Assembly: GCA_964187785.1 (NCBI GenBank)
Contig: OZ076409.1
Coordinates: 17,176,001 to 17,240,000, forward strand
Direction: 5' to 3'
Length of the DNA: 64,000 nt
Source of the DNA: Amphiscolops sp. MND2022
Lineage: Eukaryota
The notes beneath the pieces are model-generated. The model did no database searches, had not been told where the DNA came from, and saw nothing but the letters and a program-made list of their open reading frames with translations. The position numbers and the translations under genes were made by a program. Positions 9,322 to 52,419 of the stretch are shown in pieces (position 1 is the first letter of the stretch; each line of letters opens with the position of its first letter).

Positions 9322-12300
9322 ATGAACAGTGTCAAAGAAACGAGTCCTACTGGACCTTCGCAAGTAGATGCTGGCAAAAACAAACCAGACAGTAAACCTC
9401 AGGAAGTGACGAATGGCATCAAAAGACCAGGACTGACAACTAAGAAAAAAGTAAATGGTACTGCTGCGTCGAGGTTGAGACAAGACTATCTGAGACTTAT
9501 GAAGGATCCGGTGCCTTATATCACAGCAGCTCCATTGCCAACGAATGTTCTTGAGTGGTAAGATTTTCGTAGATCTACAGTTTCGTTTGATTCTATTAGT
9601 ATTTTTCAGTTACCTCTGTGCAGTTGACAGGCATTTCGACTAAAGAGTTACCTTAGATGATTTGTATTAGAATGATTCAAAAGCTTCATTGAAAATCACC
9701 AATTGTGGTGATCACTAAAAAGTTCAGATATCTTCATAAATACGTGCTTTTAAACCTTATTCGTTATCGTTGAATCTTTCCTTGTTTAAAATCACGTTTA
9801 TAATCAATTAAAATTATCCAATAATGCGGTTGTTGAATGAATGAAGGGTAGCTTTTTTTCGTGTTGCTGAAAGACAAAAAATAGCGATATGATATGCATC
9901 TTTTATATACGCTCGTGAAGTTCGCCTAAATATTCAAAAACACTGAATTGGTAAGTTGAATTGGAAGCTTACCGTAATCGGGAATGTCGAAAGGTTCGAG
10001 ATAGGTATACCTTTTCAGTTTCACTTTGGTGTAAAGTTACAGTCGCCTAGGTGCAGTGCAGATATGATTACGGTTTCTTGATTCTGTCAAGCAGTTTCGC
10101 GATGTAACTTGAGGAGTTGTATTTTGTCTTTTTTGGACTTTCCGGAGGGAATTAACTTTGGATATGTTCGAGAGCCAAGCATTTTAAACCATGCACGCGT
10201 TGATTAGTTCTTAGGAAGTTACCGATATCGCTATTTTCTCATGAAATTTGGCTGTATTCAGAGCCTTGCTATTTGTCGTTAGCTTTCTATGGCTTCTTCG
10301 ATCTCAATGGAAGGTTTCTTTGTTGTCCTCAGTGATCATGTTCCTAGTAGTTGGGATCGTTTATAACTTTTATAAGCTGTTGCTTCTACTGCCACACTAA
10401 ACTTGTAACTTATACTGCCACTTGGCACAGAGGTTAATCAGGATTTTTTGAGGTCTGCGAAACAGGACGTGGGTTCGAGTCTCGCATGTGACCAATCTTT
10501 TGTGCTTGTTATTTCGGCTTTGTGAGACTTTTTTCGAAAAAAAATTTCTCCAAAGGGTCCTCCTTCAATGTTTTTGATATTTTGCATCAAATTGGATTTT
10601 CAAATAGCCCAAGGGCCCCCTTTTACAATTTTCGGCTTTGTGAGATTTTCGTGATTTTTCGTCTGAAATTAGGTTTTCTCAGGACGCTATATCCGTGCTG
10701 AGCGGCGGATATCAAGAATTTTTTTCGAGAGCGGCATTTTTTCCATACCACTTTTTTGCAATCTGTTTTTATCGAAACCCCCCTCGATTTTTACTAGGAA
10801 CAATTCCTTAGGATTTTCGGCACTATGCGACTAATAGGAGACTTCGTCAAAAAAGTCAAAAAACGTGGCTTTAGAGTCTTATGCGTATCTCTTGAGGTAT
10901 TTTTGGCACTGTAGAATGAGTGAAATTTAACAAAAGTGTTCTTTTGCGTATGTAAAAAACTTTTTTGAACCTTGAGCCGGCTTGTTTTTCTTTTGTGTGA
11001 TTTAATAGCTGTTCAATTACCAATCGTGATGGGTTAAAATAATTGATTCAAAACGCATCACGCAAACTTTTCCTGGCAAATTTAGGTATTTCTCAATGGG
11101 AGCCTCCTGCAAAAATATGGGCCCTCTTTCATCTGTGAATTTACAGCGAACTTTTAATTCCACCATTGGCTTCGAAAGCGCTCGTTAATTGTATGATTCC
11201 TTGGATAATTGCTGGAAATTATATTATACCGCTTTGCCTTCAATTGATGGTTTGAAATTAAGAAAACTTCGTTCATATGTTTATCTTTGTATTTTGTTTG
11301 TTCAGGCATTATGTGGTTGAAGGACCTGAAGACAGCGTTTATTCAGGTGAATTGAATTTTTTTTCATTTTTCAAGTTTCACTCCGTTAAAGTTTGTTTTA
11401 TTTTTCAAGGTTCACTCCGTAAAAGTTTCTTAATTTTTAGGTGGCTTTTATCACGGGAAACTTGTTTTCCCCAGCGAATACCCGTTCAAACCTCCGTCCA
11501 TTTACATGTGCACACCGAATGGACGGTTCAAAACCAATACCAGACTTTGCTTGTCCATCAGTGATTTTCATCCGGATACGTGGAACCCCGCGTGGTCCGT
11601 GGCTACCATTCTCACAGGTTTACTCAGTTTCATGTTAGAGACATCACCTACCCTTGGAAGCATCGAAACATCAGACCAAACGGTGAGTCATTTCATTCTT
11701 ACTTTTTTACTGACTAAAGAATTCGGTAACGTTTCAAATGTATATTGATGGGCGCTGTTTTCTATATTCTAAAGCTGTTCCTATAAGCGTTTTTTCTGTG
11801 TGATTTTTCTGACAACGGAAAAACTTGTTAGACCAGTGTAGCCACAGTGAGTCAAATTTTTCTAAAGTCCTCCATGAAAACAATATTTATCAACATCCCT
11901 GAGTCATTCTTTGTAGTTTTTGGTCGACGCGACAAAATATTCCTGATTATTATTTTTTGTTCCGAGCGATAATGTGCTGAAAGAATGCGACTAAGCAGAG
12001 CGGAGTGACAGCGATTCTCAAATGCATGAGGCTGATGATACTTCTCAGATCTCATTGGTTTATGCTGCCTCAATCTTAGCCAAAAATGAAGAAATTCGAG
12101 CCTTCACGTATTCCTCGAAAAAAAGAATAGCTGAAAAATATCCTGTTTTTTGTTTCCTGAATTATCCCGGAAAAAATATGCATTCATCAATATTAATTTG
12201 ACATTGCATGTATAAAGATATAAAATTCAAATTCGGTCGTAAAATCGGTTTTTGTAATTCTATTACCACTTATAGAAGAAACACACTTCCTTGTAATCTT

Positions 12301-15300
12301 ATTAAAATTTCAAACTTTAAGCAACATTGTCATTTCTGAATACTGAAATATTGGACAGCGCAAATTGACGTTTTACCCATTTAGGTCGCATTCTGTTGCA
12401 AACCACTGTAGTTTCACTCTGATACGTTCTGATACTACGTCTAAAATCTAAAGGATACTCATGAAAGCCAAATGGGTTCACTTCGTTTTTTGGCACTAAA
12501 ATTTTTCGAATTTTTTTTGTAGTTCTCCTTGTTCGCAAAACTTTTGCTTTGCTGTATTCCTCACTTCCAGTATTCTGTATTCCAGTATGTAAGCAAAAGC
12601 TCCTGCAATGAGGACTTTCATAAGTTCTGGACGCCACAATCGAAGAGGGTCTTCACGTGCGACCGCTCCCCTCCCCTTGCAGATATCAGAAACAAGCCGA
12701 GAACGGCCAAAGTCGGCGCTATATCTAAGGCTCAAAATTGTAAAAGGGGGGACTCTTTGGGTTTTGTGAAACTCCAGCTGGTGGCAAAATATGAAAAAAA
12801 ATGAATTGAACAGTGTCACAGTGTCGAAAAATGTAAAAGGGGGGACCCTTTGGGCTTTGTGAAACTCCAGCTGGTTGCAAAATATGAAAAAAATTGAAGG
12901 GGGGACCCTTTAAGGACTGAAAAAAATTGCCCAAAAAAATTTTAAAATGTGATTTTTGAACAGTGTCACAATGCCGAAAAATGTAAAAGGGGGGACCCTT
13001 TGGAATTTTCTGACATCCATTGTGTTTTAAAATATCGAAACAAATAAAGGGGGGACCCTTTGGTGCAATCCAAAAAGTTTCAAAAAAAGTCGCATAGTGC
13101 CAAAAAAAGTGAGGGGGGGGGGAGGCTTAGGGGAGATCGTTAGTGTGTTGTCGAGGTTCTGTTTGTTTTGTTTTCTTTTTCGTTTTGGACGCGCTTCTTA
13201 GGTTCGCCGAGTTGTTGAAGAAATGAACTGAACAAAGAACAAAAAGAAAAGACACAGAAAGAAAAGTGGAACTTTCGTGTCTAAAAAAAAACTACCCACT
13301 GTAATAGTCGGGCACATTTTCTAAAATGCGCCGACTAAAAAACAAAGAAAAATTGAAACAAGTAGCTGTTCATTTTGTTATTCAGGTACAACTAGCTACC
13401 GCATTTGATCATTAGCGGTAGCGATAGCTGAATTAAGTGGTTTATATCCATTAATCACAGGTACAGTAAAGAAGACTGCTATTTTTCAATCGAGTTGATT
13501 TGTTTAGAAGCGCCAGCTAGCAGTTCAGAGTCTGGAATTCAATATGAAAGAACCTCTTTTCAAGGAAGTTTTTCCCGATGTACATAAAGTTAGTATCATA
13601 ACTGTTCATTCAGATAAGTTGACGTGCCAAAATTAAAATCCGGGTATCTGAAGCTAGTAATACCGAATATTAGCGAATTTTTAGCTGTAAAAACACGTTT
13701 TTTGTAGAAATCCGTGGTTCGCTGTTTGTTTCTCGAGCCTTTCTTGATCCAGACCCTCATCAGTACATTAGTTTAATAACTTTGAGTTCAGTGTGTTGTT
13801 TTTTTTGTAGTTTTACATTCTGTAATATGATCATGATAGAAAAATTTTCCTGTTTTTGATTGGAATGGTCTCGAAAACAAGGCGATACATATATACTCAA
13901 CTACGTTCATAACGATATTCCGGTTACAGCGATAGTTTCACGGTCCCGGCCACGATGCTAGTATATAACGATTTTCGCCTATACCGATATTCGGATATAA
14001 CGATTAAAAAACGCCGGTCCCCGGGCAATCGTTTTAAGCGGAGTTGAGTGTACCCCTAGCGTCATCTTTTACCTATATTAAAACAATTTATTATTATTAT
14101 TATTATGAATTCTGTGGTTTTCACCACACGGGGTTTAACCCCTTCCAGATATATCAAGTGGCACACAGCATAAAGTATTATTGTACAAATTTCAGTGCAA
14201 ATTTGAAACTTCAGTTAGAAGTTATCAAAGTCCAACTCTGTTTTGGAAGCAGTAGTCTGTTACAGAAGTACATAAGAGTCTCGTGTAGAAAAGTCAGGGT
14301 TTCAGTTGTTTAATAGTCTGCAATTTTTTTGTCACACAGTCGCATTTGATTCTCCAAGTGCAAGTGTTCAGCTCATCAAAGGTGTCGTGAAAATCACGCC
14401 ACATCCAGTAGAGTAGCTTCGGTTTTAGAGTATCATATTCACGAATGTCAATTGAAGATGGTAATTGCATGGCTAGACGTTTTGCTCGGAACCAAAAATT
14501 TTGTTCTGCAGTAGCGGGTTGAGGCCTGCTTTCTTGCAAGAAATGATAAGGTTCTAGTCGTGTGTGATAAGTATATTCGTTGTTCATTGAATAGTTAAAT
14601 TTGTCAGAGAGATCATAGTTGATATTTTGTGTCAGTATTTTCGAGAGATACAGGAGATTCAGCAGTTGAAAGTAAAAGGGGACGGGTAGTATATTTAGTT
14701 TGATAAGGCAGTCCTTATAGCTACTATCTGGAATAATCCATTTGCAGACTTTCTTTACTCTTTCGAGGATCCTCATGCATTCCACGTTCAATGGTAGTAC
14801 GATCGATGAGTGTGTGAAAATTGGCAAGATCATGCTCTTGTATAAATTCAGTTTGTGTTGGCTACTTAGGCTGGGAGAGTTTCTCTTGATCATGTAAAAG
14901 ACTGTATGCCTTTTCGGTTCTCGACTTGAAATGTGGAACCCAACTCAGGGATTTCGTGATAAATACACCAAGGTCTATCTCTTGTTCCTTCGATTGTAAT
15001 GGAGCTCCGCCAAAAGTCAACTGATCATGGTTTCCGTTCTTGAAGCAGAGCTGGCCACATTTGTCAAGGTTGAAATTTATAAAATTTTCTACGCTCCAAA
15101 TGAAAATATTGTTCAATTCTTCTTGTTTTTCTAATAATGTTAAGTTCAGACATATGAACTTTGCATTGTCAGCATAAAGGATAGCCCAGGTACACCGACA
15201 TATTTGAGGAAGATCGTTGATAAATATGTTGAAAAATAAGGAAGATAATATGCCACCTTGCGCTACTCCACTGGTTGCAGGAAATAGTTGAGATGTAGCG

Positions 15301-23743: not shown

Positions 23744-24688
23744 ATGGATTTTTATCGGTGCTTTGTCTGTGAAGTCTCTCTGAACAGCCAGGACGAATTC
23801 GAAGAACATCTTGAGAAGTTGTCTCATTTGCGTTCTCTGGCAGAGCGGAAGTTGATTTCGTCGAAACATCTGGACTTGTTGATGCTTCTTGATAAATTCA
23901 GGCTCCCTGTGGAGATCCAAAATGGCCGACCCACAGCTTCACATATCAATGAAAATGTTGAAAGACTTACGATTCCCTGTAGTTTGAATGCCACCAACTC
24001 AGTAGACAGTTTTCATAGCAATGAGTCGCGCAATGATCTCGTAGATCCTAGTGTTGAATCAAACGAAAGCTTTTTACAGCCTCGTGGTAATAATACAAGC
24101 AAGCCCTTGCTATTCGAGTTTCAGCCACAAACCGTGTCGCTTGAACAGTGCCCTGAAATTTCAAGTTCCAACAAGGAAAATTGCGACCTTGTGTCAGTCG
24201 TATGTTTAGTTTGTTCTAAAAAGTTGCTGACTTTCAATAATCTCAAGATGCATATGATTGATGGGTCTCATGAGAATGCAAAAAAGAAATCATCTGCAAA
24301 TTCGCGCATCTTGAGATGTAAAACTTGTGATGTAGATTTTGTCGAAAAGAAGCTGATCGAGCATCTGATTATTGACCACTTCCATATCCAGCGTGCCTTC
24401 CTGTCAAATAAACAAGAAATAACCAGAAACTTTGAGTGTATTTCTTGTAACAAAACTATGAACAGCATCGCTACAGAACATCTTCAGTCCAAGAAACATG
24501 TTAAGAAGCTGTCAGAAACGCCCATTGAATATTACATGCGGTGTAGGTTCTGCAGTGAAGACTTCAAATTGGTTCAGGATTTTGAAAAACATTCCCATTC
24601 TCAGTTACATGGAGTTCGGGAGAAGCTTTTGAAGTTTTATTATAAAACGTTTCTGGGAAAGAAAAGGAAAAAGACAAAAAGTGGCTGA
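23744..24688 (+). CDS. Intronless C2H2 (matrin/U1-like) zinc-finger protein, paralogue 2
   Basis: MDFYRCFVCE..HLEKLSH, then four fingers (CLVC, CKTC, CISC, CRFC) and a basic KKRKK tail. Confidence 0.85.
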   Translation: MDFYRCFVCEVSLNSQDEFEEHLEKLSHLRSLAERKLISSKHLDLLMLLDKFRLPVEIQNGRPTASHINENVERLTIPCSLNATNSVDSFHSNESRNDLVDPSVESNESFLQPRGNNTSKPLLFEFQPQTVSLEQCPEISSSNKENCDLVSVVCLVCSKKLLTFNNLKMHMIDGSHENAKKKSSANSRILRCKTCDVDFVEKKLIEHLIIDHFHIQRAFLSNKQEITRNFECISCNKTMNSIATEHLQSKKHVKKLSETPIEYYMRCRFCSEDFKLVQDFEKHSHSQLHGVREKLLKFYYKTFLGKKRKKTKSG

Positions 24689-27915: not shown

Positions 27916-28241
27916 CCTACTCTAATGGTGCATCATTTGCCATGTCACACGAAATTGTTTCCTTTGTCTGGGAACAAACAAGCTCGGGAGTTGTTCCTTT
28001 AGTCGATACATCTGATTTGCCCTAGTATCGATCTCTATCAATAAATTCCCCGGATTTGGGTCAATTATCTGGTCTTCGTTAAAGTTCGGATAAAGTAACA
28101 CAATGTTTGGCTTGTTGCAAGCATCTAGCGAACTTGACTGATCTGAAGTTTCATGTAATTAACGATGTCGCTTCTCATAAACTTGCGAAATTATATCGCC
28201 GGTTGTTCTGTCCTTTCAAAAAAGATTTCGACGGAACAATT

Positions 28242-28839
28242 AACAAGACGGGAACGTCTAAAGTCGGCGCTATATCTAAGGCTCAAAAAAGCGCTAAGTT
28301 TTTAAACTTGTAAAAGGGGGACCCTTTCAGCTTTTTGAAAATCCAGTCTGTTGCAAAATATCAAAAAAATTGAAGGAGACAATAAAAAAATTCGGAAATT
28401 TTTTTGAAAAAACTTTCGAAAAAACGAAAAATGAGAATTTTGAAACAGTCTCACAGTGCCGAAAACTAGAGAGGGGGGACCCTTTGGGCTTTTTGAAACT
28501 TCAGTTTGCTGCAAAATATCAAAAAACTTGAAGGGGGGACCGTTTGGCGACAAAAGAAAATTCGAAAAAAAAGTCGCACAGTGCCGAAAAAAATTCAAAG
28601 GGGGGGGGGGACCCTGTAGTCCCGTCCGGTTTTGTATCTTACGTTAAAAATTGAGTACACGAAAGGGGGGACCCTTTGCAGTAACTCAGATGTGATTCCG
28701 CTTGCCGGTTCAGTACTTTTAGTAGTTCTGTAAAAAGTGTCCACTACGCATACATTCTGTGGTCTGACGAAAAAGAAAAGAAAAAAAAACTTGCCACTGT
28801 AATAGTGGGGCTCATTTTCTTCTAAAATGCGCCGACTAA
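28242..28839 (-). mobile_element. Complete Helentron/HINE-like element
   Basis: AACAAGACGGGAACGTCTAAAGTCGGCGCTATATCTAAGGCTC ... CACTGTAATAGT..AAAATGCGCCGACTAA; GGGGGACCCTT minirepeats. Confidence 0.75.
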
Positions 28840-28980
28840 AAACACTTCTTCACTAGTTACTATTTCGAATTTTGTTTTTGAGACTCCTGATATTTCTCAA
28901 AATATTCAATGTACTTTGCTATTTTGCCAAACTTTTTCCTGAATGTCATCCAATTTCATTTCTGACATTACTGAAAGAAA

Positions 28981-29549
28981 AACAAGACGGGAACGTCTAA
29001 AGTCGGCGCTATATCTAAGGCTCAAAAAGCTCAGAGTTTTCTAAATATGCCCAGGATGTATTCATGAAAAGCTTTGAAAACACTTTCGAGACACCCAAAG
29101 TGTGCCTTTCATGCTCGATATGACTGGAAAATCACTTTTACCGACTCGACTGGAAACAAAAAAAATTTTGAAAAAAAAATTTTTTGAAAAAACTTCGAAA
29201 ACGTCGCATAGTGCCAAAAAATGAAAAGGGGGGACCCTTTGGGATTCATTAACATACTTTTTGTTGCAAAATATCAGAAAATCCGAAGGGGGGACTCTTT
29301 TGAAAAAATTGAAAGGGGGGACCCTTTGGAGTCTTCCGGTTTTGTAGGTTACGTAAAAAAGGTAAAAAACGAAAGGGGGGACCCTTTGCAGTAAGTTTGC
29401 ATTGGTCGAAGTGGCCTGAGTGAACTTATCAGTTTCTGTAAAAAGTGGTACATACGCGATGAGCTCTGTGGTCTGACGAAAAAAAAAAGAAAAAAAACTA
29501 GCCACTGTAATAGTCGGGTTTTTTCCTTAAAGGAAAATGCGCCGACTAA
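28981..29549 (-). mobile_element. Complete Helentron/HINE-like element
   Basis: Same left terminus as the 28242 copy; right end TAGTCGGG-TTTTCCTTAAAGGAAAA-TGCGCCGACTAA. Confidence 0.75.
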
Positions 29550-29989
29550 TAATAAATTCAGAATGGGAGGGTCCTACTGCCAGTTATATTTCCTTCTTGT
29601 AAGTTGGATGCCAGGCAGAGGGTCTGGGGTTTAAACCTTGCTGCTGCCATTTTTAGGAGAGCGTAGCGTAAGCGGAGCGAATCCTTTTTTCACGATTCGC
29701 ACTGAAATTTGACGACTGACTTTTTTTCGATCTTCTCGTCTGAAGTGTGACATCTCTCTACGTTGTTTCAGTCGGCACTTTCGTAGTGACTTTTATTTAA
29801 TTTTTAAGACCAACGAACTGACAATAGTTCTGCCAAAAGTTCTTCAATTTTTGACAGTCCCTTTTGGCCAACTGCATACTACATTTGAGCTGTAAAGTAG
29901 TCCCCTGTGACAATAGCGCAACTCATACCGGATTTAACGCAAACAGGATATAACAAATTCCGGATATAATGTTTTTTTAATGTTTTTTG

Positions 29990-30480: not shown

Positions 30481-30959
30481 GTTCTTTCTTTGAGAGATTC
30501 GATATATGCATACATTGAGCTACAATAAAGCAACTACTTTGCTTATAAAAAGCAAAATTGAAATATAAATATCTTGAAAATGTTCACAAATGTAAGTTTG
30601 TCTGTTGCGAAGGTTACTTGGAATTTATTGCAGTTTTCTCATTGTAGTTTGGAGTGTTAAAATGTTTATCACTATCCAAAACATTTTTTATTTTAAAAAT
30701 CTAAAACATTTTCTATTTTAATTGTTCGTTTCACTAACGGTGCTTTTCTTTCACAAACGTTTTTACAATTCCACTAACGGTGCTTTTCCTCAAACTTTGT
30801 TACAAACAATTGAAGTATCAGTTATGGCTCAAAAATGATGTGTGAATAGAGAACTGTGTGAAGTCATCTCCGAGAGCGTACACATAGAAAAACCCTCAAT
30901 TGATTCTGATTTTTTATCCACATTTTTGTTCGTCCAATTTTTTACACTTGCGATAAGCA

Positions 30960-31729
30960 AGTGTTATGGGAAAGTGCGGGTGCTTTTTTTTCCGCGCGAC
31001 AACTCTCTCGTTTCAGACCGCAAGTCGCATAATTCAGACTTTTTTAGTCTAGCGGTAAGATGCTTGCTTTTCAACCCAGAGGGTCCGGGTTCGAACCCGT
31101 GCCTATGCGCTAATTTTTTTTTACAAAATTTTCGAAGCAGAAGATTCTCACTTTTTTCGACAATATGAGACCCCCCTCCCCCTTTTCGGCTTTTTGAGAC
31201 TTATTTTCGAAAATTTTTTAATGTCCCCAAAGGGTCCTCCCTTCATTTTTTTTGATATTTTGCAACAGAACGAACGTTAAAAAATTCAAAAGGGTCTTCT
31301 TTCAGATTTTTCGGCACTATGAGTGTTAAAAATTCGCATGTTAAAAATGAAACGTTTTGCGACTCTAAAGGACTCGTCAAGGTTTTCGGCACTATGCGAC
31401 TTCAAAAAAATTGCCGGTAACCTTCAAAAAAATTTTTCGAAAATATTTTGGAAAAATTTTGGAAAATTTTTGAAAAAAATTCAAAAAATTTCCTTCAATT
31501 TTCTGTTTGTTTTTAAGGTTTTCCGTTGAGGAAGATGTTTTTTTTTGCTGTTTTCAGTTGGGGAAGAATGGTTTTCGAGACTTATGCCCATCCCTTCGGG
31601 TATTTTTTGGCGCTGTAAAATTGATGAAATTTTAACATACTCCTTTTACCCTTGGTTCTACGTATGATATTGCTTATTTGGTTTTCAAAACTTCGCAAGT
31701 GTTTGCGAAGCACGGCTTCGCCTCTGTGT
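30960..31729 (+). mobile_element. HINE-related element with tRNA(Glu)-like cassette and a terminal GC hairpin
   Basis: A-box TAGTCTAGCGG at 31045, B-box GGTTCGAACCC at 31088, then a T-run; AAGGGTCC motifs; ends with the perfect stem GCGAAGC-acg-GCTTCGC (31705-31721). Confidence 0.55.
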
Positions 31730-32572
31730 TTTGAAATTGAATGAATCATTCCATAAAGAGTTTTCCGTGAATACTTGAAATTTATCCATTGAAAGAAATA
31801 TAGAAGTTGAGTTTTCTGTTCATTTGAAAGTTTCAGCGAATGTTTTCAACTATATTATTAAAGGTAATATATCTGTCTAACCTATTCATCAAAGTTTCTG
31901 CGTGAGACAAAACAAATTAGAGAAAAGAGTAGCAAGTACCAATTTTTTTTTGAAATTAAATGAATCATATTGAATGAATCGTTCCGTGAATACTTGAATT
32001 TTATCCATTGAAATAAATATAGGGCTCTTTTCTGTTTTCCCCCCACCACCAATTTTTTTTGGAAAATTAGTGAAAATCGTATAACAAAAAGACTTAATTA
32101 CAAACCGGAATGCTTCAAATTTACATTCATTCTTAATGTAACTGTTTAGGATTCAGATACAAATTTTGTTCACACTTTTGATGTCACGCATTTTTGATGA
32201 AAAATCAACAGCTTCCTGTTTTGAGTCATCAATAAATACTTAATACGAACACAATTATAGTCAAAAAGCGTGAACAATGTTTTGTTAAAGCAAAACACTA
32301 TTCCAATAGACGTTAACTTCCCATTATGAAAGAAGGTTTTACTTTAAATTAGGCTAGTTTAACGTTTTTAAGGAAATTTACTTTCAAAAATTTTGGTGGT
32401 GGGGGGGGGGGACAGAAAAGAGCCAAATATAGAAATTGAGTTTTCTGTTCATTTGAAAGTTTCAGCGAATGTTTTCAACTATATTATTAAAGGTAATATA
32501 TCTGTCTAACCTAGAATATTTTCATCAAAGTTTCTGCGTGAGACAAAACAAATTAGAGAAAAGAGTAGCAAG
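31729..32572. repeat. Tandem duplication of a ~220-bp unit (31729-31936; 31949-32572), the second copy interrupted by a MITE
   Basis: Near-identical TTGAGTTTTCTGTTCATTTGAAAGTTTCAGCGAATG...GAGAAAAGAGTAGCAAG in both copies. Confidence 0.85.
32023..32424. mobile_element. MITE with GG-initiated TIRs and 8-bp TSD (Merlin-like)
   Basis: TIR GGCTCTTTTCTGT..CCCCACCACCAA / TTGGTGGTGGGG..ACAGAAAAGAGCC; TSD AAATATAG at 32015-32022 and 32425-32432; single empty site in the upstream duplicate (~31796-31803). Confidence 0.85.
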
Positions 32573-32599: not shown

Positions 32600-34825
32600 G
32601 ATCGGTCTGGCGCTACACTTAAAGCTCAAAAAGTGCAAAGTTTTGAAAATATGATCAGGACTTTTTTAAATGAAAAACTCACATAAAAGTGTCGAAACAT
32701 CCAAAGGGTGCCTTTCGTGCTCTGAAAACGCTTCAAAAGTTCGGATATCCACATGGGAGCACTTTTCCCGAACCTCGGCCTCCTGGTTAGTAAAGCGCAA
32801 TTTACTTCGGATATAACGTCAAAAGTTCGGATAAAGCGTGCCGAGACAAATGGGGGTGCTTGCTTTCGAATATCCGCCTCTTCCTTAGTAAAACTCAATA
32901 TAGTTCGGATATAACGTCAAACATTCGGAAACAGCGCAATATTTTTGAATCTCACGAAAAAGTGCTGGCTGAAGCAGGGACTCGAACCCGCTCTCGCTGA
33001 GTTCCCCTAAACCGATTAACCTCTACACCAAAAAGTGGTACATGCAGGGTGAGCTCTGTGGTCTCACGAAAAAAAGTAGCCACTGCAAAGTTAAAGACGG
33101 GAACGTCTAAAGTCGGCGCTATATATGAGGCTCAAAAAGCGCAGTTTTTAAACCTGTAAAAGCGGGAGCCTTCGGGTTTTTTGAAAATCCAGATTGTTGC
33201 AAAATGTCAAATAAATTGAAGGGGGGACCCTTTGGAGACAAAAAAAATTTTTAAAATTTTCGAATAAAAAAACGAAAAATGAGAATTTTGAACAGTCTCA
33301 TAGTGCCGAAATACATGAAAAGGGAGACCCTTTGGGCACTTTAGTTTGCTGCAAAATATCAAAAAAATCTTGAAGGTGGGACCCTTAGAAGACGAAAAAA
33401 AATCGAAAAAAAGTCGCAGAGTTCCGAAAAAAATTGCTCGAAAAAGTTTCTAGCCAAGGCAAGGACTCGAACCTGTGACCGCTGGGTTCACCGTAAATCG
33501 AGGAAAGACTGTACTGACGAGTACACGTGAACGAGTAAAGTCTGTAAAAAGTGGTACATACACGATGAGGTCTGTGGTCTGACGAAAACAAGACCGGAAC
33601 GTCTAAAGTCGGCGCTATATCTAAGGCTCAAAAAAGCGCAATTTTTTAAATTGCTTTGATTTGGGACTCTTTGGAGACATTAAAAACATTCGAAAAATTT
33701 TTTGAAAAAAAAATTTCGAAAAAAAACGAAAAATGAGAATTTTGAAACAGTCTCACAGTGCCGAAAACTAGGAGGGGGACCCTTTGGGCTTTTTGAAACT
33801 TCAGTTTGCTGCAGAATATCAAAAAAGTTGAGGGGGACCCTTTGGGGACATTCAAAAAATATAATTTTTTTTGGAAAAATGTTCGAAAAAAAACGAAAAA
33901 TGAGATTTTTGAAACAGTCTCATAGTGCCGAAAAACTAGAAAGGGGGACCCTTTGGGCTTTTTGAAACTTCAGTTTGCTGCAAAATATCAAAGAACTTGA
34001 AGGGGGGACCCTTTGGCGACAAAAAAAATTCGAAAAGTCGCACAGTGCCGAAAAAAACTGAAAGAGTCGCACAGTGTCGAAAAAAAATTGCTCGAAAAAG
34101 TTTCTGGTTAAAGCAAGGACTCGAACCCGTGACCGCTGGGTTCACCGGAAACCGAGTACGGACGAGTACACGTAAGCGAGAGTGAAGTCTGTACATACGC
34201 GATGAGGTCTGTGGTCTGACGAAAAGAAAAAAAAACTAGCCACTGTAATAGTCGGGCTTTTTTCCTTAAAGGAAAAGGCGCCGACTAAAAAAAGAAAAAA
34301 ACTAGTCACTGTAATAGTCGGGCTCTTTTCACTAGAAAAGCGCCGACTAAAAGTTCGAATAGTATTGAAATTATCGGGAAAAAAATGAGAATTTGTAAGT
34401 CTCATAGTTCCGAAAAATGTGAAAGGGGGCCCATTTTGTATTTTTAACATCCATTTTGCTGCAAAATATCACAAAATTGAGGATGGGACCCTTTGGAGAC
34501 ATTGAAAACTTTTCGATAAGTCTCACAGTGACTTAGATGCGTTCCCACTGGCCTATCTTGTAGTTTGGTAGTTTCTGTAAAAGTTTCCACTGCGCATAGG
34601 TGATAGTATCTGACGAATAATACTTGCCACTATAGCAGCCGAGCTCATTTTCTAAAATGCGCGGTCTAAAAATACGAATGCGGAGACCCTGCCGACTACT
34701 TTGCCAATTTGTAGTGGAATTTTGGCATTTATCACAAAATGGTCACTTCGACCGGATTGAAAAAAAAACAATATGAAAAGTCACTATGATAGTCGCCTTT
34801 TATAACATGAAGCGCTGGCTGAAAA
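32600..34825 (-). mobile_element. Head-to-tail cluster of Helentron/HINE-like copies and repeated termini
   Basis: Left termini at 33094 and 33587; right termini (..GCGCCGACTAA or decayed) at ~34288, 34350, 34670, 34823; minus-strand B-boxes (GGACTCGAACC) at ~32979, 33463, 34117. Confidence 0.75.
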
Positions 34826-37101: not shown

Positions 37102-38319
37102 CCCAAATTGCGACTAACGCAACTAATGCTGTTTGGACGTCTGCAAAGATCAATTTTGCTCTGACGGCAGATCCATACGAGTCAAGTGAAGACTACGGTT
37201 TCGCAATTTCGTGCAAGGAATATGCTACATCATCTGGGCGTGTGTTGAGAATGAATTGTGTCGATCCATCATGACTTTGGAAATTTATGACAATCAAAGA
37301 CTTACTGTTTCCAAAAATAAAGGGCAATTTTGAATTATGCCTCAGTGTCCCTTTTCGCAGGGGATACCAATGCATGGGTTTGTCGATAAAATTGTGGGTA
37401 TCTTCGACTTGGGTGTAAACAATTTGTGGATTACCCATCGCAGCATCGTGAATTGAGGCAGAAATTGAATAGTAGTACTGGATCCTGACAGCAGAGGGGA
37501 CAATGTCGATGAAATTACATGAAACCCTCGAAACATTGGGACACTGGGTAACTTCATTTACAGTTTATTTGGATGAATGTTTTATCGTTTATTTTCCCTT
37601 TTTGTTCTAAAATGAGATTTGGAAGTATTGTGATATTCTGAAGTTTTATTCTGATTTTCGAATAATGATTTCTGCAGAATTGTTTTGAATGATCTTCTAG
37701 AAAAATAAGCCCGAAAATCATTTTTATAGAAATTGTTTGTGTCAAATATTTTTCCCCCTTCATTTAAGTGGGAAACTTGAATTATCATCATCTTTTCCAC
37801 CGTTGTCTCAGTGGACTGGTGTTGGCGGGCGCCCCTGAATTAACTATTGTGTTAAGTGAGAAACTTGAATACTCAACGTTTATATGCTTTCAGTGAAATT
37901 GACAAATATTGGAATACATATGCAAGGTTTGGAAAATTTGTTTACTCTCGATCAATTTGATTTTCGGATGCTTCATGTCCCATGTCAGTAAGTGATTTGA
38001 TAACGACAAAAGCTCGACTTTTAAATTGGCCTGTTTTCAGTCAGCACTTCTTGAAGAAAAAGTGCCAGACTTTTTATTAGCTAGTTTTGTTCGTGAGACA
38101 AGGACCTCACACTGAATGATGCTCCTTCTGGTTACCTGAGTACTTTAGCCTTAGCCTTTCTATCAGACTTGAAGAGATCAGAGGAACTTTCATGGGGGTG
38201 TTCCCCTTTTGAACATTTCCTCATTTTCAAAAAAAAGTTGCAACTACATTCAATGGAAGAAGCAAAGAAGTTTTCATTTCTCAAAAACATGTCTGTCCTT
38301 TGCTGCTTTTTATTTTCCG

Positions 38320-38447
38320 CCCATATTTCATATGGGAAAGGAAAATATTTAAATCAAACGGGTTTTTTTTTTTTTTTTTTTTTTACAAAATTTGCCAAGA
38401 TTTTATTTATATTTAAATTTAAGGGTGTTACCCATAGAATTCAACCC
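38320..38447. repeat. Dispersed repeat, inverted copy at ~59683-59790
   Basis: GGAAAATATTTAAATCAAACGG(T)nACAAAATTTGCCAAG..AAGGGTGTTACCCATAGAATTCAAC matches the reverse complement of 59683-59790. Confidence 0.7.
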
Positions 38448-38640
38448 ACATAAATTTAGCTTCGTGCGATATGTATTTGTAGAGATTTTTGAAGTTTTTT
38501 TAAAAAATGACGAAAATGACGAAAATGACCCCTTAATGACAAAATGACCCCGAAAATGACAAAAATTCCCAAATTTCTCATTTTTAAACATTTTTATGCA
38601 ATTTTTGCCATTTTTTGAGACACCGCGAATTAGAAAAATG

Positions 38641-38780
38641 GACAAGATGAATCGAAGCTTTCTTTTCTTCGAACTTCTCAGCGTTTTTATAGTGCATTAG
38701 TTATTCTTGAGCCTCAAATTTATGTAGTTGTAGAACAGTTCGGGGCGGAAAATATCCCGCTCCTCAGCGGGCGTCTTGTT
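38641..38780 (+). repeat. Terminus of a second CTTGTT-ended element family, inverted copy at 62129-62266
   Basis: TATTCTTGAGCCTCAA..GTAGAACAG..CTCAGCGGGCGTCTTGTT vs AACAAGACGCCCGCTGAG..CTGTTCTACAAC..TTGAGGCTCAAGAATA. Confidence 0.7.
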
Positions 38781-42300: not shown

Positions 42301-45300
42301 AAAAACCGCTTCCACGCTCATGTCTGAAACAACGTCTGGAGCTTCGTCAAGTCTCAATGGCTTCAATAATTGGAGGAAAAAAGCAGGTTGCAGGAAATTT
42401 GGACTCAAAGCGTTCAAACTGAGCGACTCAGAGGGTAGTAGAGGTGACAGTGGCGATGACCAGCCTATGAAAGATGTTTGCATTGTCAAGAAGACCAAGT
42501 CTCGGTCTCTGAATGAAAGGCAAAAGCGATTGATGACTCAAAACAACTCGGATGAGGACGATGAAGTGATTCATAGCCAGGGACGGAAGTCGGCTCGTAA
42601 ACCTCGCGCTATCTTGAGTGCAAGAGAACTGAACCAACAAACTAGGAAAGCGGCGAAGGAGGAAAAAGACAGAATAGTTCGTGTGAAGTCTATAAACAGG
42701 GAAGGTTTAGATGCTTTCACGGAAACTGAGCAGGGAAAGGTTTATTCGCATGTATGGCTAGAAAAATGTCCCAAAGAAAACCAACCTCTTGTGGATGTGA
42801 ATGAAAATATTGTTGGTAAATTGAAAGAACACCAAGTACAGGGTGTTCATTTCATGTATGATTGCACAGTGGAGTCGGTAAAAAGAGCCAAGAAGTTTGA
42901 AGGTGCCGGATGCATTCTCGCACATTGTATGGGTCTTGGTAAAACATTACAAGTTGTCAGTTTCCTCGATGCAGTGCTCACTTCGCCGAATTTGAAACAG
43001 TTCAAGTCAGCTCTAATCATTGCGCCTTGCAGTACTCTGGATAACTGGAAGAAGGAATTCAAGTTTTGGCTCCTGGGACAGGCTAATTTCAATGTTCTAA
43101 ATTTGGATAAATACAAAAATGAAAAGTCGTTGCAAATGCAGGCGCTGCAATATTGGAGTCTCAACGGCGGTGTAATGATTTGTGGCTATGAAGCATTTGC
43201 TATTCTTGTTCGAAAAGCAACTGAAGACAATGACGAAGTGAAGAAGAATGAATCCTCGCCAAAAATTTCGAAACCCAAGCCCAAGTCAAAACAACCAATG
43301 AGCGAAGAGTACAAAGAAATAGTTATTTCAAGTTTGTTAGACCCGGGTCCTGATTTTGTCATTTGTGATGAAGGACATATGTTGAAAAACGACAAAACCA
43401 TGAAAGCTCAAAGCATCAACAAAATCAGAACCCTCCGGCGTATCATGCTGACAGGAACCCCTCTACAGAACAATTTGGATGAGTATTATGTGATGAGTAA
43501 TTTCGTGAAACCGCATCTCCTTGGGACAAAGAAAGAATTTAGAAATCGCTTTTCTGGTCCCATCACGCGAGGCCAACAGAAAGACGCGAATAGAACTGAA
43601 GTTAAACGTATGCAGAGACAATCTCACGTTTTGCATAAACAGCTTTCTGGTTGCGTGGATCGAAAAGATTTTTCATACATCAAAAAAATGCTGCCACCGA
43701 AATATGAGTACACGTTAGAGATTCGTTTGAGTCAATTGCAGATCGACCTGTATGCGAAGTATCTGGCGCTGTTCATCCAAGCAAGTAGCCAAGTGGGTGT
43801 AGACGTGGATGAGATGGAGCAAGTGGAGATCAAGAAGATAGCAACCACCAAAGGGAACCTGCTCAAAAACTGTCACGCATTCGCCCGTATTTTGGCGCAT
43901 CCAGTGATATTCAAATCGAAGCAGGCTGACAATGCATCTACCAGCAAAAACGACGATGATGATTTCGGGTTCGATAAGTTGGCTGCCGACATTCTCAAAG
44001 TTCCTGGTTGGTTTTAATCTATGCATACTTAATCTATACAGGTTTATAGTTAGTATTGTTCCTTGATTGTTGGAAGCAACTATCCTGGTGATGCGTTAGC
44101 GCAAAAAAAAATCATAATTTATCAATTACGGTGATTGTATATTTCCTTGATTGTCGGGTATTCGTGTCTTAGACCTCTCAGTGAGGAATTTATCGGAAAA
44201 AGGGCCTTTCAAGCCCGAACCCGCTTTCACCCAAACTTGCAACATAGGACAACTCAACATATTTTTTCGAAATACGCACAATGCTGAAACACCCAAAGGA
44301 GGAACTTTTTGAGCGTGTCTACCTTTTCAAACGTAAAAAAATTACAGCAGAGCGGAATTCGAATCCACGATGTGCTCCTCAGGCACGCACACTGTCACAT
44401 TCCGTTCCGCCATCGGCGTGAGCAAAGTCTGTTGAAATGTGGACCATTCAGATTTATTCTGTTGTCTGAAGAAAAAAATGGACACCTATGAAAGTCACTA
44501 AATTTTATTCTGAAATGCGCTGACTAAAAATACTACGAGTGTCCAACTGGACTTTCGGATTCAATTCACGTAAAAACTAGTCAAAGCTCATTTTTGTCAT
44601 TTCGAGAGAAGATGTGAGAATGACTTCATTTACTAATTCTTAGTTCTCAACTGTGATCATTTGTTCAGACAATGCGGAGGATAACACGTCAAATGCAGCC
44701 ACTGGTAGTAACGAAGACTTGGACAAGGAGTGGGTCGAATTCGCCGAGGCTCAGTTGGTGGCCCATTCAGCCGGGTCCAAGAACTTGTTCGATATTAATG
44801 CCAGTGGAAAATTCGTGTTGCTCTGCGAAATCCTGAAGATGTGTCATCAGAAAGGAGACAAACTCTTGCTTTTCAGTCAAAGAATCGACTTTCTGGATTT
44901 GATTGAGAACATGTTCAAGATGTTATCCAGAGCTCAGTCTCAAAAGTGGCAGGTTTGTTTGCGTTTTTTCATAGCCATCAGAATTGCGTTTTTGAGCTGA
45001 AATCGAATTTATTACCAATGCTAGCCCAGAAACCCAAAACGACTTCTTTGTTGGTTTATGATTTTTTGATGGACAGCGAAGATTTGGATATTTTTAGTCG
45101 ACGCTTCATGAAGTGAAACGTGACTTTTTTCAATCCGCAATGACACTTTTTTTCAATCCGCACGAACTGACCACAATAGTTCTTGAAAGTTCTACGAAAT
45201 TTTATGGTCCCAAATTGAATAATTTGACCTAGCGAACTGAACCAAAAAGGTTTTTCCTATTTTTCCGCGTAACATACAAACCTGGGACAGACTAAAGGGT

Positions 45301-48055
45301 CCCCCTTTCAGTTTTTTCCGGCATTATGAGACTTCTTGAAAACAATTTTTCCCCGAAGGGTCCCCTTCAATTTGTTGATGTTTTGCGACAGAATGGATGT
45401 TGAAAAATCCCAAAGGGTCCCTCCTTTTAGTTTTTTCGGCATTGAGACTTTTTTCAATTTTTTTCAAAGGGTCCCTTCAATTTTTTGATGATTTGCGACA
45501 GAATGGATGAAAAATCTCAAAGCGTCCCCCCTGACGCGCCAATTCGGTCCAACTTTTTTGAGTTTTTCAGGTACTGTAGAAGAGAATACTTTGGCACTTT
45601 GAAGTCCTTTTGCTATTTTTGAGCCTTAGATATGGCGCCGACTTGGGCCGATCCTGGCTTGTTTAAACGTCTTTCGAGCTTCAGTTTTTCAGCAAAAATG
45701 TTATGATTTAATTTGTTTTCCTCTTTCAGAAAGGAGTTGCCCGGGAAGATGGTTTTGTGCCCACAATCAATGGACTGGAAGCGGGGGATTGTAAATGGAT
45801 TCGAGATCAACATTATTTCAGGTTAGTGCTCCGCTGTTAATGAAATATCCTTTGGGCCTTAATAAATACACTTCCATTGCCATTCATTTTAAAGTCAGAG
45901 TTCTTCAATTTTTCTGTATTCTATCAATGGTTCATTGTTTTTTGTTCAGACTCGACGGATCAACCAGTACTAAAGAGAGAAAACGAATCTGCAAAAAGTT
46001 CAACAACCCACAGTCCAATGTGAGATTGATGTTGATATCAACTCGAGCTGGAAGTTTGGGCATCAACTTGATCGCAGCTAATCGAGTCATTCTATTCGAT
46101 GCTTCGTGGAACCCAAGCCAAGACATCCAGTCAATGTTCCGTGTTTACAGATTCGGGCAAACCAAACCCTGTTATATCTACCGTTTCATAAGCAAAGGCA
46201 CTTTCGAACAGAAAATTTATTTCCGCCAGGTTTTGAAGGAGTCTTTATCGGAGAGGGTGGTCGATAAAAACGCCAAGGAAAGAAATTTCACCAAAGATGA
46301 TGTAACTGAATTCTATCGTTTCACAGTTTCAATGGATGAAAGCCCAGTACCAACAGTGCCTGCTGACAATCTTCTGGCAGATTTGGTGCTCAAGCATCAG
46401 TATTGGATTGGCAACCATTACGAACATGACACTTTACTACAAGATGACGTTGATGACCTAAACGAAGAAGAAAAGAGAATAGCCTGGGAGGAGTACGAAA
46501 GAGAACGAGAGAGGGCTCATACACCTCCGCCCAATGTAATGAAAGATATTTTGGGTTCCGAAGTGCCTGGACCCAGCGATGCTAGTGCAAGTTCAATTGG
46601 GTTTGCCATTCCTTCATCAGATGTAAGCCATAATACACCAAGCAAGCCCTTTTTGAACCCAATAGTGACACCCACCATGCAACCAGGTACCAGCACATTT
46701 ATTCCATTAGCATCCTCAAATGTGAACACAGGAGGGGGTTTGATGGGAAGTGTGAGCAACTTGAATGACCTGAACAATCAGCAACTTCCGTCTTTGATTA
46801 ATACCAATTTACCTCTACCTCCAATGAAGTGAGTTCTTTACAGTGCTAATTGTCTAAAAACAACACTCCGTGACTTTTTCTGAGTTGTGTTTAGCCAATG
46901 TTGTTTTTAAGGGATAGTGCATTAGTGCATAATAACTTTATCAGCCAGTTCATCCACTCAGAGTTGTTAAGCAAATATTGTTATTGGAGCAAGTGTTATC
47001 CATTCAGCACTGTACTACCAATTCACCAATCGAATAATGTGACAAAAGGTTTTTCTGATTTTAGGCAAACTGGCTCACAAAAGTGTAATAAATGTGAAAC
47101 GGCTCAAGTTGGCATCCCGCTTCGGGCTAAACGAGCGCTATAGCTTTTAAATATGCTTAGAGATTGTTTTCAAGGATATTTTGAAAATCTCAGTGGTAAC
47201 GAGGAATATTTTGAGCGCAAAAAAGACTTCCAACTAAATTAACGGATGCTAACTAAATCAACCTAAAATTTAGACCTAACTAAAATCAAAAGAGGCCTTG
47301 TGAATTGAATTATTTTTCCTTAAAAAATCACTCGTAGTGCCGAAAATTTTAATACCTGTATACACTATAACCTAGCTCGTTCCCGAAAATATATACTCGA
47401 TTTGTAAATTTGTACTTCGTAAAAAAACTTTTCACGCCACTTGGCCCAGTGGATCGAGCGCCTGACTATGAAGCAGGAGAACGTGGCCTGAAACGTTTTG
47501 CGAGCCTGAAAGGACTCAAGTTTTCAGGCATTATGCGACTTTTTGTTCAAAAATGTTTTTTCGCAGGTTATTTTCCGTTACTGGAGAGCGTTTTCGAGTA
47601 TCTAGTTCTCCTTTGTGTAGCTTCTGGGACTGTGAGATTGATAAGTATCATTTCTAATAATTTTCATAATAGTTCCCTCTGCATTTTCAAAAAAAAAACA
47701 TTGCTTTTTGAGCCTTAAGAAGGGTGCCGGCTTGGTCCTTCCCCGCTTGTGAAACGTTACATCAGAAACTGCTCTGGTATAGCTCAATTCGAAATGATTT
47801 GGCGTTTGTTAGAATCGGAGTGGAAAGTGTCTCAGCCATTTTGAAAATTGTTACGGTTTATTCGCATTTGTTTTTAGAGTCGCTGCCACAAACAGTTCAA
47901 AGCAAATGCCTGTTGATTCTACATCCAATGAAAAAATTCTGGAAAGCGTGCGGAAAGAGTTAACACGTCGCAATGAGATACTTAGAAGTCGCCTCACACG
48001 CAACCTTATGATCGCTTCTAAAGCAACAAGCAAAAGAGCCTCAACTCAGTCTTAG
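39362..48055 (+). CDS. ATRX: ATRX/XNP-like SNF2 chromatin-remodelling helicase. Exons 39362-44006, 44669-44952, 45730-45821, 45950-46828, probable last exon 47878-48055
   Basis: GCILAHCMGLGKTLQVVSFL, PGPDFVICDEGHMLKN, LTGTPLQNNL, RKD..LPPKYEY, SGKFVLL..GDKLLLFSQ, W.RDQHYFRLDGST, ISTRAGSLGINL, DASWNPSQDIQSMFRVYRFGQTKP, EEEKRIAWEEYE. These motifs match ATRX rather than ARIP4. Splice phases 1,0,2,2 are consistent. The last exon is less certain (could stop at 46832 or use 50576). Confidence 0.88.
45094..45663 (+). mobile_element. Helentron/HINE-like element in ATRX intron 2
   Basis: TTAGTCGACGC 5' end; AAGGGTCCCC repeats; ends GAGCCTTAGATATGGCGCCGACTTGGGCCGATCCTGGCTTGTT. Confidence 0.75.
47435..47750 (+). 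mobile_element. Decayed HINE-like copy with tRNA-Arg(ACG)-like 5' half
   Basis: TGGCCCAGTGGATCGAGCGCCTGACTATGAAGCAGGAG resembles the tRNA-Arg D and anticodon arms; ends TTTTTGAGCCTTAAGAAGGGTGCCGGCTTGG..CTTGT. Confidence 0.5.
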
Positions 48056-50930: not shown

Positions 50931-51200
50931 TTCGTTCATATCAACTTATGCTACTCTATTACTTATAATAGTGCTGAAAAATTAGACTTTAGTTGAAATT
51001 TCGTGTCATTTGTAACATTATCATCAAATTTCTCGCCGTAAATGTATTCAGTGTGAAATTTGATAATTTGTCTTGGGGTTCTCAACTGGAGAAATAACAG
51101 ATTTAGTCAATTTATATACTTTTCCCACGCTGACATGAAGAAAGATTTTGTAGCAAACCTGTATTTTTTGTTCTCTAAAAATTCTAATTTCATGCCGTTA

Positions 51201-51751
51201 TTAGTCGGCGCCTTTTCCCTTAAGGAAAAAAGCCCGACTCTTACAGTGAGTAGTTTTTTTTTTTTTTTTGTTTTTTTCAGTTGACAATCTCACTCTGAGT
51301 GGTCCACTTTTCTTACAATCTTTGTTCACATTTGTTCACATTTGTTCAACTAACTTTCTGAGAAGCAGGGGATCGTGGGTTCGATTCTCGCACTAAACCA
51401 CAAATTTTTTATGCTTCCAAAAGTAGATGCGAGACCAAAGCTTTGTTTCGTTTCGTTTGATTTTTTTCGTTTTTTTCGGCACTATGCGACTTTTTTTTTC
51501 GAAAATTTTCGGAATCTATCAATTGCATTTTTTTTTGAAGTTTTCGGTTTGTAAAAACGTTTAATGAGCCTGAATGGCCTCTTTTTGAGTTTTTCGGCAT
51601 TGTGCGACTTTCTAAAAAAATACTTTTTTTCGAAAAAAAAATTTCAAATTTTTTTTGAAAAAAATAATTTTTCCAAATGTTTCCAATAGTTGTTCCTTGA
51701 ATATTTTTGAGCCTAAGATATGGCGCCGACTTGGGACGTTCCCGTCTTGTT
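51201..51751 (+). mobile_element. Complete Helentron/HINE-like element with B-box cassette
   Basis: TTAGTCGGCGC-CTTTTCCCTTAAGGAAAAAA-GCCCGACT ... GGCGCCGACT-TGG-GACGttccCGTC-TTGTT; GGTTCGATTCT at ~51378. Confidence 0.78.
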
Positions 51752-51849: not shown

Positions 51850-52419
51850 GGGTAGTTTACGATGGGCAGTTTTTCAGCCTACAATCTCACTCTGAATGGT
51901 CCACTTTTCTTACAATTCTTACAATCTTACAATTTTTACAATTCTTACTTAGCTTACGAAGTAGTATTCCACCCTTCAATTTTTCGATATTTTCCGACCG
52001 AATGGATGTTGAAAAATCCCAAAGGGTCCCCCTTTCAGTTTTTTTGGCCTTGTGAGACTTTTTTTTCAATTTTATTTTCCTAAAATGGTCCCCAATTCAC
52101 CAATACTTTGACATTTTGAAGTCCTTTTGTTATTTTTGAGCTTTAGATATGGCGCCGACTTGGACCGTTTCCGGCTTGTTCACCATTTTGAAATCAGCGC
52201 TATATGAAATACAGGCTGGTAATTGAGTGGCTTTTTGTCATGGTTAAACTCGACGTAAGTGGCCAAATTTAAGTTCCTAATAAAATTTGAGGCACCAGAG
52301 ATGAGAGATCCACTGAAAAGGTCGCGGGTTCGATCCTTGGTAAATGCCAACCTTTTTGTCCTTTTTTGAATTTTTCAACTTTGAGCGGGGCCGCTGTCTT
52401 TGGCAGTTCCGGGCTTGTT
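51850..52419 (+). mobile_element. Two partial HINE-like copies upstream of RAD50
   Basis: Termini GGCGCCGACTTGGACCGTTTCCGGCTTGTT (52180) and ..CCGGGCTTGTT (52419); B-box GGTTCGATCCT at ~52327. Confidence 0.6.

What the first reader, a model, noticed from the sequence alone, without database searches (positions are those of the whole stretch)
10420..52419. Rolling-circle-type (HINE-like) elements carrying interchangeable tRNA-like Pol III cassettes
Seen: at least 9 copies of the family carry a tRNA-like segment, near the 5' subterminal end where that end is visible. Examples: A-box + B-box at 10423-10482; Glu-like 31045-31098; Arg(ACG)-like 47442-47479; B-boxes at ~51378 and ~52327 on +; B-boxes on - at ~32979, 33463, 34117, 44354. 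Cassette strand tracks element orientation, the cassettes differ from each other as if from different tRNAs, and four + copies are followed by T-runs (10497, 31114, 51405, 52354). Known: A/B boxes recruit TFIIIC/Pol III, T-runs terminate Pol III, and Helitron-class elements capture host sequence. Inference: this may be a hybrid system in which a DNA-transposon shell repeatedly acquires tRNA-derived promoters, spreading Pol III transcription units or TFIIIC insulator sites through the genome.
Basis: partly seen in the sequence, partly recalled or inferred. Interest (0 to 1): 0.78.

Follow-up and report, generated by a model that had tools for sequence, protein, structure and literature searches.

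The report
Rolling-circle transposons carrying tRNA-type promoters
Some of the short rolling-circle jumping genes in this animal genome carry a worn-down transfer-RNA gene that has lost its shape but often kept its promoter signals and stop signal, so these elements likely scatter thousands of landing sites for the host's tRNA-reading machinery, probably inherited from a few old captures rather than freshly swapped.

Summary
All nine sites exist. Eight have a B box with a T-run 24-28 nt behind it, four of those also have an A box, and 47442 has lost its B box. They sit at a fixed place and in the element's orientation inside HINEs (non-autonomous Helentrons): subterminal inverted repeats, 3' hairpin, T-rich target, no target duplication. 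An intact Helentron has an identical 5' end. They are not SINE insertions.

Corrections: the 31045 copy belongs to a second terminus family; about 86% of family-1 copies, and the autonomous partner, have no B box; 'Glu-like' is not supported.

'Interchangeable cassettes from different tRNAs' is not shown. Nine family-1 lineages form one clade, and a single origin for four terminus families is not rejected (p-AU 0.42).

The system is wider than reported. Four HINE terminus families carry such cassettes, one in antisense. A and B boxes are better kept than the tRNA stems. One HINE 5' end is fused in register to a real tRNA-Gly gene.

Best reading: an optional, inherited Pol III/TFIIIC promoter module spread by rolling-circle copying. 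No transcription or binding data. I found no such case in print.

The parts
10416..10501 (+). Family-1 cassette: A box 10423, B box 10472, T-run 10498. The host HINE has an eroded 5' end and a degenerate 3' end near 10968-10987.
   Evidence: 1614 first-look candidates; most relatives have a family-1 5' end upstream
12690..13341 (-). Complete family-1 HINE without a B box
28241..28842 (-). Complete family-1 HINE without a B box
28980..29552 (-). Complete family-1 HINE without a B box
30942..31730 (+). Family-2 HINE: other subterminal repeats and hairpins, same core repeats; young, internally deleted against the 1.05-kb form
   Evidence: 756 first-look candidates, top 40 at 97-100%
31038..31123 (+). 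Family-2 cassette: A box 31045, B box 31088, T-run 31114; Pro/Gly-like
32600..33090 (-). Outer body of a nested family-1 stack; cassette with A box at 33030, B box 32978-32988 and T-run
33093..33586 (-). Middle body of the nested stack; B box 33463-33473, no A box
33586..34352 (-). Complete inner family-1 HINE (5' end 34291, B box 34117-34127, no A box), plus an outer 5' end at 34352
38311..38780 (+). Family-3 HINE; no cassette hit in this copy, while short members elsewhere carry one or two
44335..44529 (-). Old family-1 copy: 5' end 44527, degenerate A box 44412, B box 44356-44365
45091..45664 (+). Family-1 HINE without a B box
47436..47752 (+). Old family-1 copy: A box and anticodon arm 47442-47479, B box deleted, 3' end 47710-47752
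51200..51751 (+). Complete family-1 HINE; B box 51378, T-run 51405, no A box; 5' end identical to the autonomous Helentron
52190..52420 (+). Short degenerate family-1 copy; B box 52327, T-run 52353

Best explanation
These are non-autonomous rolling-circle transposons (HINEs) with an intact Helentron partner, and a minority of their subfamilies carry a tRNA-derived segment that likely works as an optional Pol III/TFIIIC promoter module, probably inherited from one or a few old captures. Shown: the termini, the T-rich target without duplication, the partner, the fixed position, decayed stems with kept A/B boxes and T-run. Inferred: the Helentron RepHel-endonuclease copies the whole element as DNA, so the cassette needs no RNA step. 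New cassette types likely arise by divergence and deletion in source copies, by nested insertion into the T-tract behind another copy's 5' hairpin followed by end bypass (which would hand a body to new termini), and now and then by recombination with real tRNA genes. Inferred and untested: TFIIIC bound at the B box about 150-225 nt inside the 5' end would keep source copies open or shielded from silencing, which would explain why the boxes outlast the stems while most subfamilies do without them.
For: HINE anatomy in 29 distinct top loci. TSD of 5 nt or more in 4 of 95 family-1 copies against a shuffled mean of 2.3, and in 1 of 36, 0 of 9 and 0 of 7 in families 2-4. Two Helentron copies 98.4% identical, with a 2304-codon frame holding JAB (below cut-off), DUF6570, Rep, PIF1 and a weak endonuclease match; their 5' end matches 112 of 112 aligned bases of window 51201-51320. 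Nine family-1 lineages form one clade. A family-1 variant and old family 2 share 25 of 30 bases at tRNA positions 8-38 (non-cognate host pairs: median 0.55, 95th percentile 0.74, maximum 0.84), and the two families share core repeats. Pairwise identity is 0.77 in the A box and 0.81 in the B box against 0.49-0.59 elsewhere; stems pair 0.48-0.71 against 0.93-0.99 in 14 host tRNAs; across 11 lineages the B box (0.84) is as well kept as the subterminal repeat (0.83). A profile without the B box still finds it in 8 of 11 lineages. 11 of 95 copies sit just behind another 5' hairpin. One family-2 5' end runs in register into a tRNA-Gly gene.
Against: The lineages were first found through B boxes, so box conservation is inflated, and the profile was trained on such lineages. 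63 of 73 unselected 5' ends have no B box, nor does the autonomous partner near its 5' end, so any benefit is modest. The tree has 73 columns and holds only one window copy (31045); cassettes with altered spacing were left out. In that tree family 2 groups with host Gly/Pro (87/97), apart from family 1, and family 4 is antisense; both fit separate captures. Only 14 host tRNA types from 7 amino acids were compared. There is no evidence of transcription or binding.
Confidence: 0.55

Rival explanations
1. Repeated fresh capture: shells keep picking up or swapping cassettes from different host tRNA genes, and the module is convergently selected.
For: Four terminus families carry cassettes, in different positions and one in antisense. 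Family 2 groups with Gly/Pro and family 1 with Arg/Thr/Trp. Window cassettes fall into two look-alike groups. One in-register HINE/tRNA-Gly junction exists. In a separate, non-HINE repeat family the same site is Lys/Phe-like in some copies (28 of 31) and Gly-like in others (25-26 of 30).
Against: Family 1 is one clade and a single origin is not rejected. No HINE cassette is close to a host gene: the best match at positions 8-38 is 23 of 30 or 23 of 31, inside the range of non-cognate host pairs. The junction is a single case.
Confidence: 0.22
2. Neutral passenger: an old captured tRNA gene or SINE head rides along without function, and the kept boxes reflect how the copies were found.
For: Most subfamilies and the autonomous partner lack the B box. 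The A box is lost in large subfamilies. Some non-box columns are also well kept. Several old copies have lost the B box.
Against: The B box is as conserved as the subterminal repeat while bases 62-73 fall to 0.47. A-B spacing stays tRNA-like in many lineages of four families. The B-box-free profile still recovers B boxes in 8 of 11 lineages.
Confidence: 0.2
3. Independent SINE insertions into HINEs.
For: An A box, B box and decayed stems are what a SINE head looks like (general knowledge).
Against: Position and orientation are fixed within subfamilies. The flanks are the shared shell and no tail is seen. The T-run terminator lies directly behind the head. 17 of 19 tRNA-like hits in 600 kb of evenly spaced samples lie in HINE-type elements, and the other 2 in one other repeat family.
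Confidence: 0.03

Closest known systems
HINE / DINE-1 and Helentrons (Thomas et al. 2014, PMC4067079; abstract, background, section 7 and passages read)
   Same: Subterminal inverted repeats, short 5' inverted repeat, 3' stem-loop, central repeats, T-rich target without modification, autonomous Rep/helicase/endonuclease partner.
   Different: The words tRNA, SINE and polymerase III do not occur in its main text; the cargo it describes is protein-gene fragments. Here thousands of copies carry a tRNA-derived A/B-box segment.
HLE2 group (HELIANO paper, PMC11417382; passages read)
   Same: T^T insertion, short terminal inverted repeats, 3' stem-loop; DUF6570 as an HLE2 marker, present in the partner.
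   Different: No mention of tRNA in the main text.
Arabidopsis tRNA-Cys cluster overlapping annotated Helitrons (PMC10701932; abstract and passages read)
   Same: Links Helitrons to tRNA genes.
   Different: [quoted passage not shown] Here the segment is a family-wide, decayed promoter module.
pearl / DTC84 elements of bivalves (PMC3879986; passages read)
   Same: HINE-like anatomy with core repeats.
   Different: Complete Pol III A and B boxes were not found in them.
tRNA-derived SINE heads (recalled)
   Same: A and B boxes kept, cloverleaf lost.
   Different: The segment is internal, followed at once by a terminator, and moves inside a DNA shell without target duplication or tail.

Membership tests
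HINE (non-autonomous Helentron) | Subterminal inverted repeats at both ends | tested here: met
   Family 1; families 2-4 have their own pairs
HINE (non-autonomous Helentron) | [quoted passage not shown] | tested here: met
   Read directly from the sequences; the hairpins were not folded with a tool
HINE (non-autonomous Helentron) | T-rich target, no target-site duplication | tested here: met
   T at both flanks in 93 of 95 family-1 copies; TSD 4 of 95 against null mean 2.3; 1 of 36, 0 of 9, 0 of 7. Empty-site matches for 15 of 95 and 17 of 52 differ only in T number; six of these are tandem or same-locus self-matches
HINE (non-autonomous Helentron) | Autonomous partner with the same termini encoding Rep, PIF1 helicase and endonuclease | tested here: met
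   Family 1: (endonuclease E 3e-4, under the Pfam cut-off; Y-x-x-R signature present, G-S-P-H signature reads G-M-A-H)
HINE (non-autonomous Helentron) | Autonomous partner for families 2, 3 and 4 | tested here: inconclusive
   None among the 10 Rep loci fetched with long flanks, of 152 matches
tRNA gene | Cloverleaf with paired stems | tested here: not met
   ARAGORN 0 in the window; stem pairing 0.25-1.0 by arm, acceptor 0.46-0.57 in families 1-3, against 0.93-0.99 in host genes
Pol III type 2 promoter | A box, B box at workable spacing, T-run | tested here: met
   4 of 9 window sites; 8 of 19 hits in 600 kb. The others have a B box only or an A box only
Pol III type 2 promoter | TFIIIC binding and transcription | not testable with these tools
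   One contig-only RNA run that covers repeats but no host exon
SINE | tRNA head at the 5' end, tail, own target duplication, random position | tested here: not met
   Internal fixed position and no duplication

The most novel reading that the evidence does not exclude
Non-autonomous rolling-circle elements use host tRNA promoters as a DNA-level aid. Several unrelated terminus families recruited A/B-box modules from different tRNA genes and refresh them by recombination with the host's tandem tRNA arrays. That makes them 'DNA SINEs' and the main source of more than ten thousand dispersed TFIIIC/Pol III sites in this genome.
Probability: 0.3. Interest if true: 0.8.

Novelty: new variant of a known kind. 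Interest (0 to 1): 0.6.

Why it matters
Dispersed Pol III promoters and TFIIIC sites are normally credited to SINEs, which need the promoter to make their RNA intermediate. Here a DNA-copied element keeps the same signals with no RNA step to explain them. That points to a chromatin role for TFIIIC at the transposon itself and gives a ready natural test: cassette-bearing against cassette-free subfamilies in the same shell. Scaling 8 complete A+B+T-run units and 19 tRNA-like hits per 600 kb gives roughly 14,000 and 34,000 genome-wide, a crude estimate from small counts. It also matters for annotation, because such copies would be filed as SINEs or tRNA pseudogenes.

Tried and rejected
ARAGORN at a relaxed threshold with introns gave mostly noise. 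Folding of six cassettes showed no cloverleaf, but the two host tRNA controls scored only z -1.5 to -1.8, so the test is weak. In one search two queries contained the B box by a slicing error; those rows (31 and 4) were dropped, and within-subfamily divergence from that call is not used because copies were picked by similarity. In one search the row for 47442 was cut wrongly and is not used. My first idea that the autonomous Helentron itself carries the cassette was rejected: the cassette body behind its 3' end is only 90% identical between the two copies against 99% inside, so it is an outer HINE. The idea that the tRNA-Gly array is the expanded interior of a HINE was rejected: one worn unit precedes the 5' end and no family-2 3' end follows the array. 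No HINE ends were seen in 20 stretches around other tRNA hits and arrays. A search for a host Glu gene found nothing. RNA: one run with a share of 0.04; 814 contigs lay on repeats and none on host exons, so it is no evidence either way. A paper search on a recalled, unverified guess of the animal group gave nothing relevant. Look-ups of earlier findings by sequence and by the full word set gave nothing. The share of cassette copies with a 5' end upstream rests on the classification alone.

Full report
Setting. The window is G000:C1:17,176,001-17,240,000 of a 1.07-Gb genome with intron-containing genes. It holds many copies of a 550-1,050-nt repeat with asymmetric ends.

Observation. All nine sites are present. 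Eight have a B box and a T-run 24-28 nt behind it; four also have an A box 42-49 nt upstream; 47442 keeps the A box and anticodon arm but lost the B box. B-box words are enriched: 11 against a shuffled mean of 3.3 in the window, and 20 against 4-9 in 600 kb of evenly spaced samples. None is a tRNA gene.

The shell is a HINE. Family 1 has a 9-nt subterminal inverted repeat, a 5' hairpin followed by a T-tract, core repeats and a 3' hairpin. Flanks are T in 93 of 95 complete copies, target duplications are at chance level, and empty sites differ only in T number (some matches are self-matches). These are the features given for HINE/DINE-1 in PMC4067079 and for HLE2 in PMC11417382. Of 152 Rep matches I fetched 10 with long flanks. 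Two, on C1 and C10, are 98.4% identical, carry a 2304-codon frame with DUF6570, Rep, PIF1 and weak JAB and endonuclease matches, and end in family-1 termini. Their 5' end equals that of window 51200 at 112 of 112 aligned bases. The partner has no B box near its 5' end; the cassette behind its 3' end belongs to an outer HINE (90% against 99% identity). Nesting into the T-tract behind another 5' hairpin is common (11 of 95) and explains the stack at 32600-34352.

How common the cassette is. In 864 kb not chosen for cassettes (window, 60 spaced stretches, 20 neighbouring ones), 10 of 73 family-1 5' ends have a sense B box 149-225 nt inside (two rows are one nested site), against 0.9% of random windows; none is antisense-only. 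The cassette therefore marks a minority of subfamilies. These are large: 1614 and 756 first-look candidates for two cassette-centred queries and 2776 for a query that also holds the 5' end. Within a subfamily the cassette is the same.

More families than reported. The 31045 copy belongs to family 2, with other termini but the same core; 48 of 55 members of its cluster have the family-2 5' end upstream. Family 3 (222-309 nt in six short members, no core) carries one or two sense cassettes. Family 4 (about 290 nt, 7 copies held) carries a complete A+B+T-run unit in antisense (in one search the lower-case flanks of family 4 were printed reversed without complementing, and one search gives the true strand). 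In the 600 kb, 17 of 19 tRNA-like hits lie in HINE-type elements and 8 of 19 are complete A+B+T-run units. The profile was seeded from HINE cassettes, which favours them, and some family-1 calls rest on downstream core repeats alone.

One donor or many. I collected 14 host tRNA types of normal length (Arg x4, Lys, Gly x2, Pro x2, Thr x3, Phe, one Trp-like). A tree of 24 cassettes with tRNA-like spacing and these 14 genes (73 columns) puts nine family-1 lineages in one clade (88/99) among Arg/Thr/Trp, and family 2 with Gly/Pro (87/97). One origin is not rejected for families 1+2 (p-AU 0.26) or 1-4 (0.42). Five cassettes with altered spacing or shifted register, and those lacking an A box, were left out, so only one window copy (31045) is in the tree. 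A family-1 variant shares 25 of 30 bases at positions 8-38 with old family 2, which points to hand-over between shells or a common donor. No HINE cassette exceeds 23 of 30 or 23 of 31 to a host gene there. On the other side, the window's cassettes differ as much as unrelated tRNAs, family 4 is antisense, and one family-2 5' end crosses in register into a real tRNA-Gly gene at the edge of an array. That junction shows that cassette and gene can recombine, if the assembly is right. My reading is a few old captures, then divergence, deletion and shuffling; frequent fresh swapping remains possible but unproven.

Are the boxes selected? Across nine lineages the A and B boxes keep 0.77 and 0.81 pairwise identity against 0.49-0.59 for other columns, and the stems have decayed; across 11 lineages the B box equals the subterminal repeat (0.84 against 0.83). 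A profile lacking the B box hits 34 of 201 elements in sense and none in antisense, and 8 of its 11 lineages keep the box. Both tests are biased by how lineages were first found, and lineages are not independent. Several large subfamilies keep only the B box, which fits a TFIIIC site better than a transcription unit (inference from the known roles of the A and B boxes). The only RNA run found was uninformative.

Mechanism. Shown: anatomy, partner, fixed cargo, decayed stems with kept boxes. Inferred: DNA-level copying by the Helentron protein; cargo passed on by nesting and end bypass (end bypass is proposed for HINEs in PMC4067079); and a benefit of TFIIIC or Pol III binding near the 5' end of source copies. 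The last step is untested.

Relation to what is known. Ten searches of the paper library found no report of HINEs or Helentrons with tRNA-derived A/B boxes; no paper holds Helitron, TFIIIC and B-box together. For most hits I saw only the listing and the start of the abstract. PMC7492417 has no mention of tRNA, SINE or polymerase III (word search only). PMC5139131 means the CENP-B box (passages). PMC3845634 notes that a HINE-like silkworm element lacks a Pol III promoter (passages). PMC3879986 says pearl and DTC84 lack complete boxes (passages). PMC10701932 speculates on Helitron capture of tRNA-Cys at one locus. No supplements were read, subscription papers and Repbase/Dfam were not searchable, and an annotation of these families as SINEs may exist there. 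Three earlier AI notes of this scan describe B-box or tRNA-promoter cargo in rolling-circle elements of other genomes. They are unchecked leads, not support, but they suggest the pattern recurs.

Verdict. A real feature and a new variant of a known kind: HINEs bearing an optional tRNA-derived Pol III promoter module. Interest 0.6.

Noticed in passing
L244:5750-6659, L245, L081, L249, L255, L267, L275, L276: An older repeat family, lying behind a DUF5641 domain in L244 (BEL/Pao-type by recall), holds a tRNA-like unit that is Lys/Phe-like in some copies (28 of 31 at positions 8-38) and Gly-TCC-like in others (25-26 of 30), with only 14-17 of 30 shared between the types. This is the clearest sign of different tRNA donors at one site. 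One origin is not rejected (p-AU 0.65).
   Followed up: partly
L268:164-330 (G000:C8 near 36,023,660): A family-2 HINE 5' end joins in register to the second unit of a tRNA-Gly(TCC) array about 95 kb long; no matching 3' end was found. Single case.
   Followed up: partly
G000:C6:35.0 Mb and 54.9 Mb, C7:5.2, 25.4 and 48.06 Mb, C8:36.02 and 47.9 Mb, C9:57.55 Mb: Host tRNA genes lie in long single-type tandem arrays with many anticodon variants.
   Followed up: partly
L141-L144; L133-L136 and many rows: Other young Rep-bearing families with open frames of 2,370-2,600 codons; one pair is 99.6% identical over 14 kb and its ends are not HINE-like.
   Followed up: no
L137:4692-5819: A 376-codon frame ahead of the Helentron RepHel frame, with no Pfam match.
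   Followed up: no
L167:86-180, L160:1959-2050, L265:1489-1800, L179, L295:4482-4580: Further tRNA-like units outside the families defined here.
   Followed up: no
window 9325-11700, 44670-46830, 52557 onward, 24300-28080: Host genes around the elements: a ubiquitin-conjugating-enzyme-like gene (by eye), a helicase-C gene and an SMC/Rad50-type ATPase start, and a coding-like repeat of about 875 nt in three to four copies.
   Followed up: no
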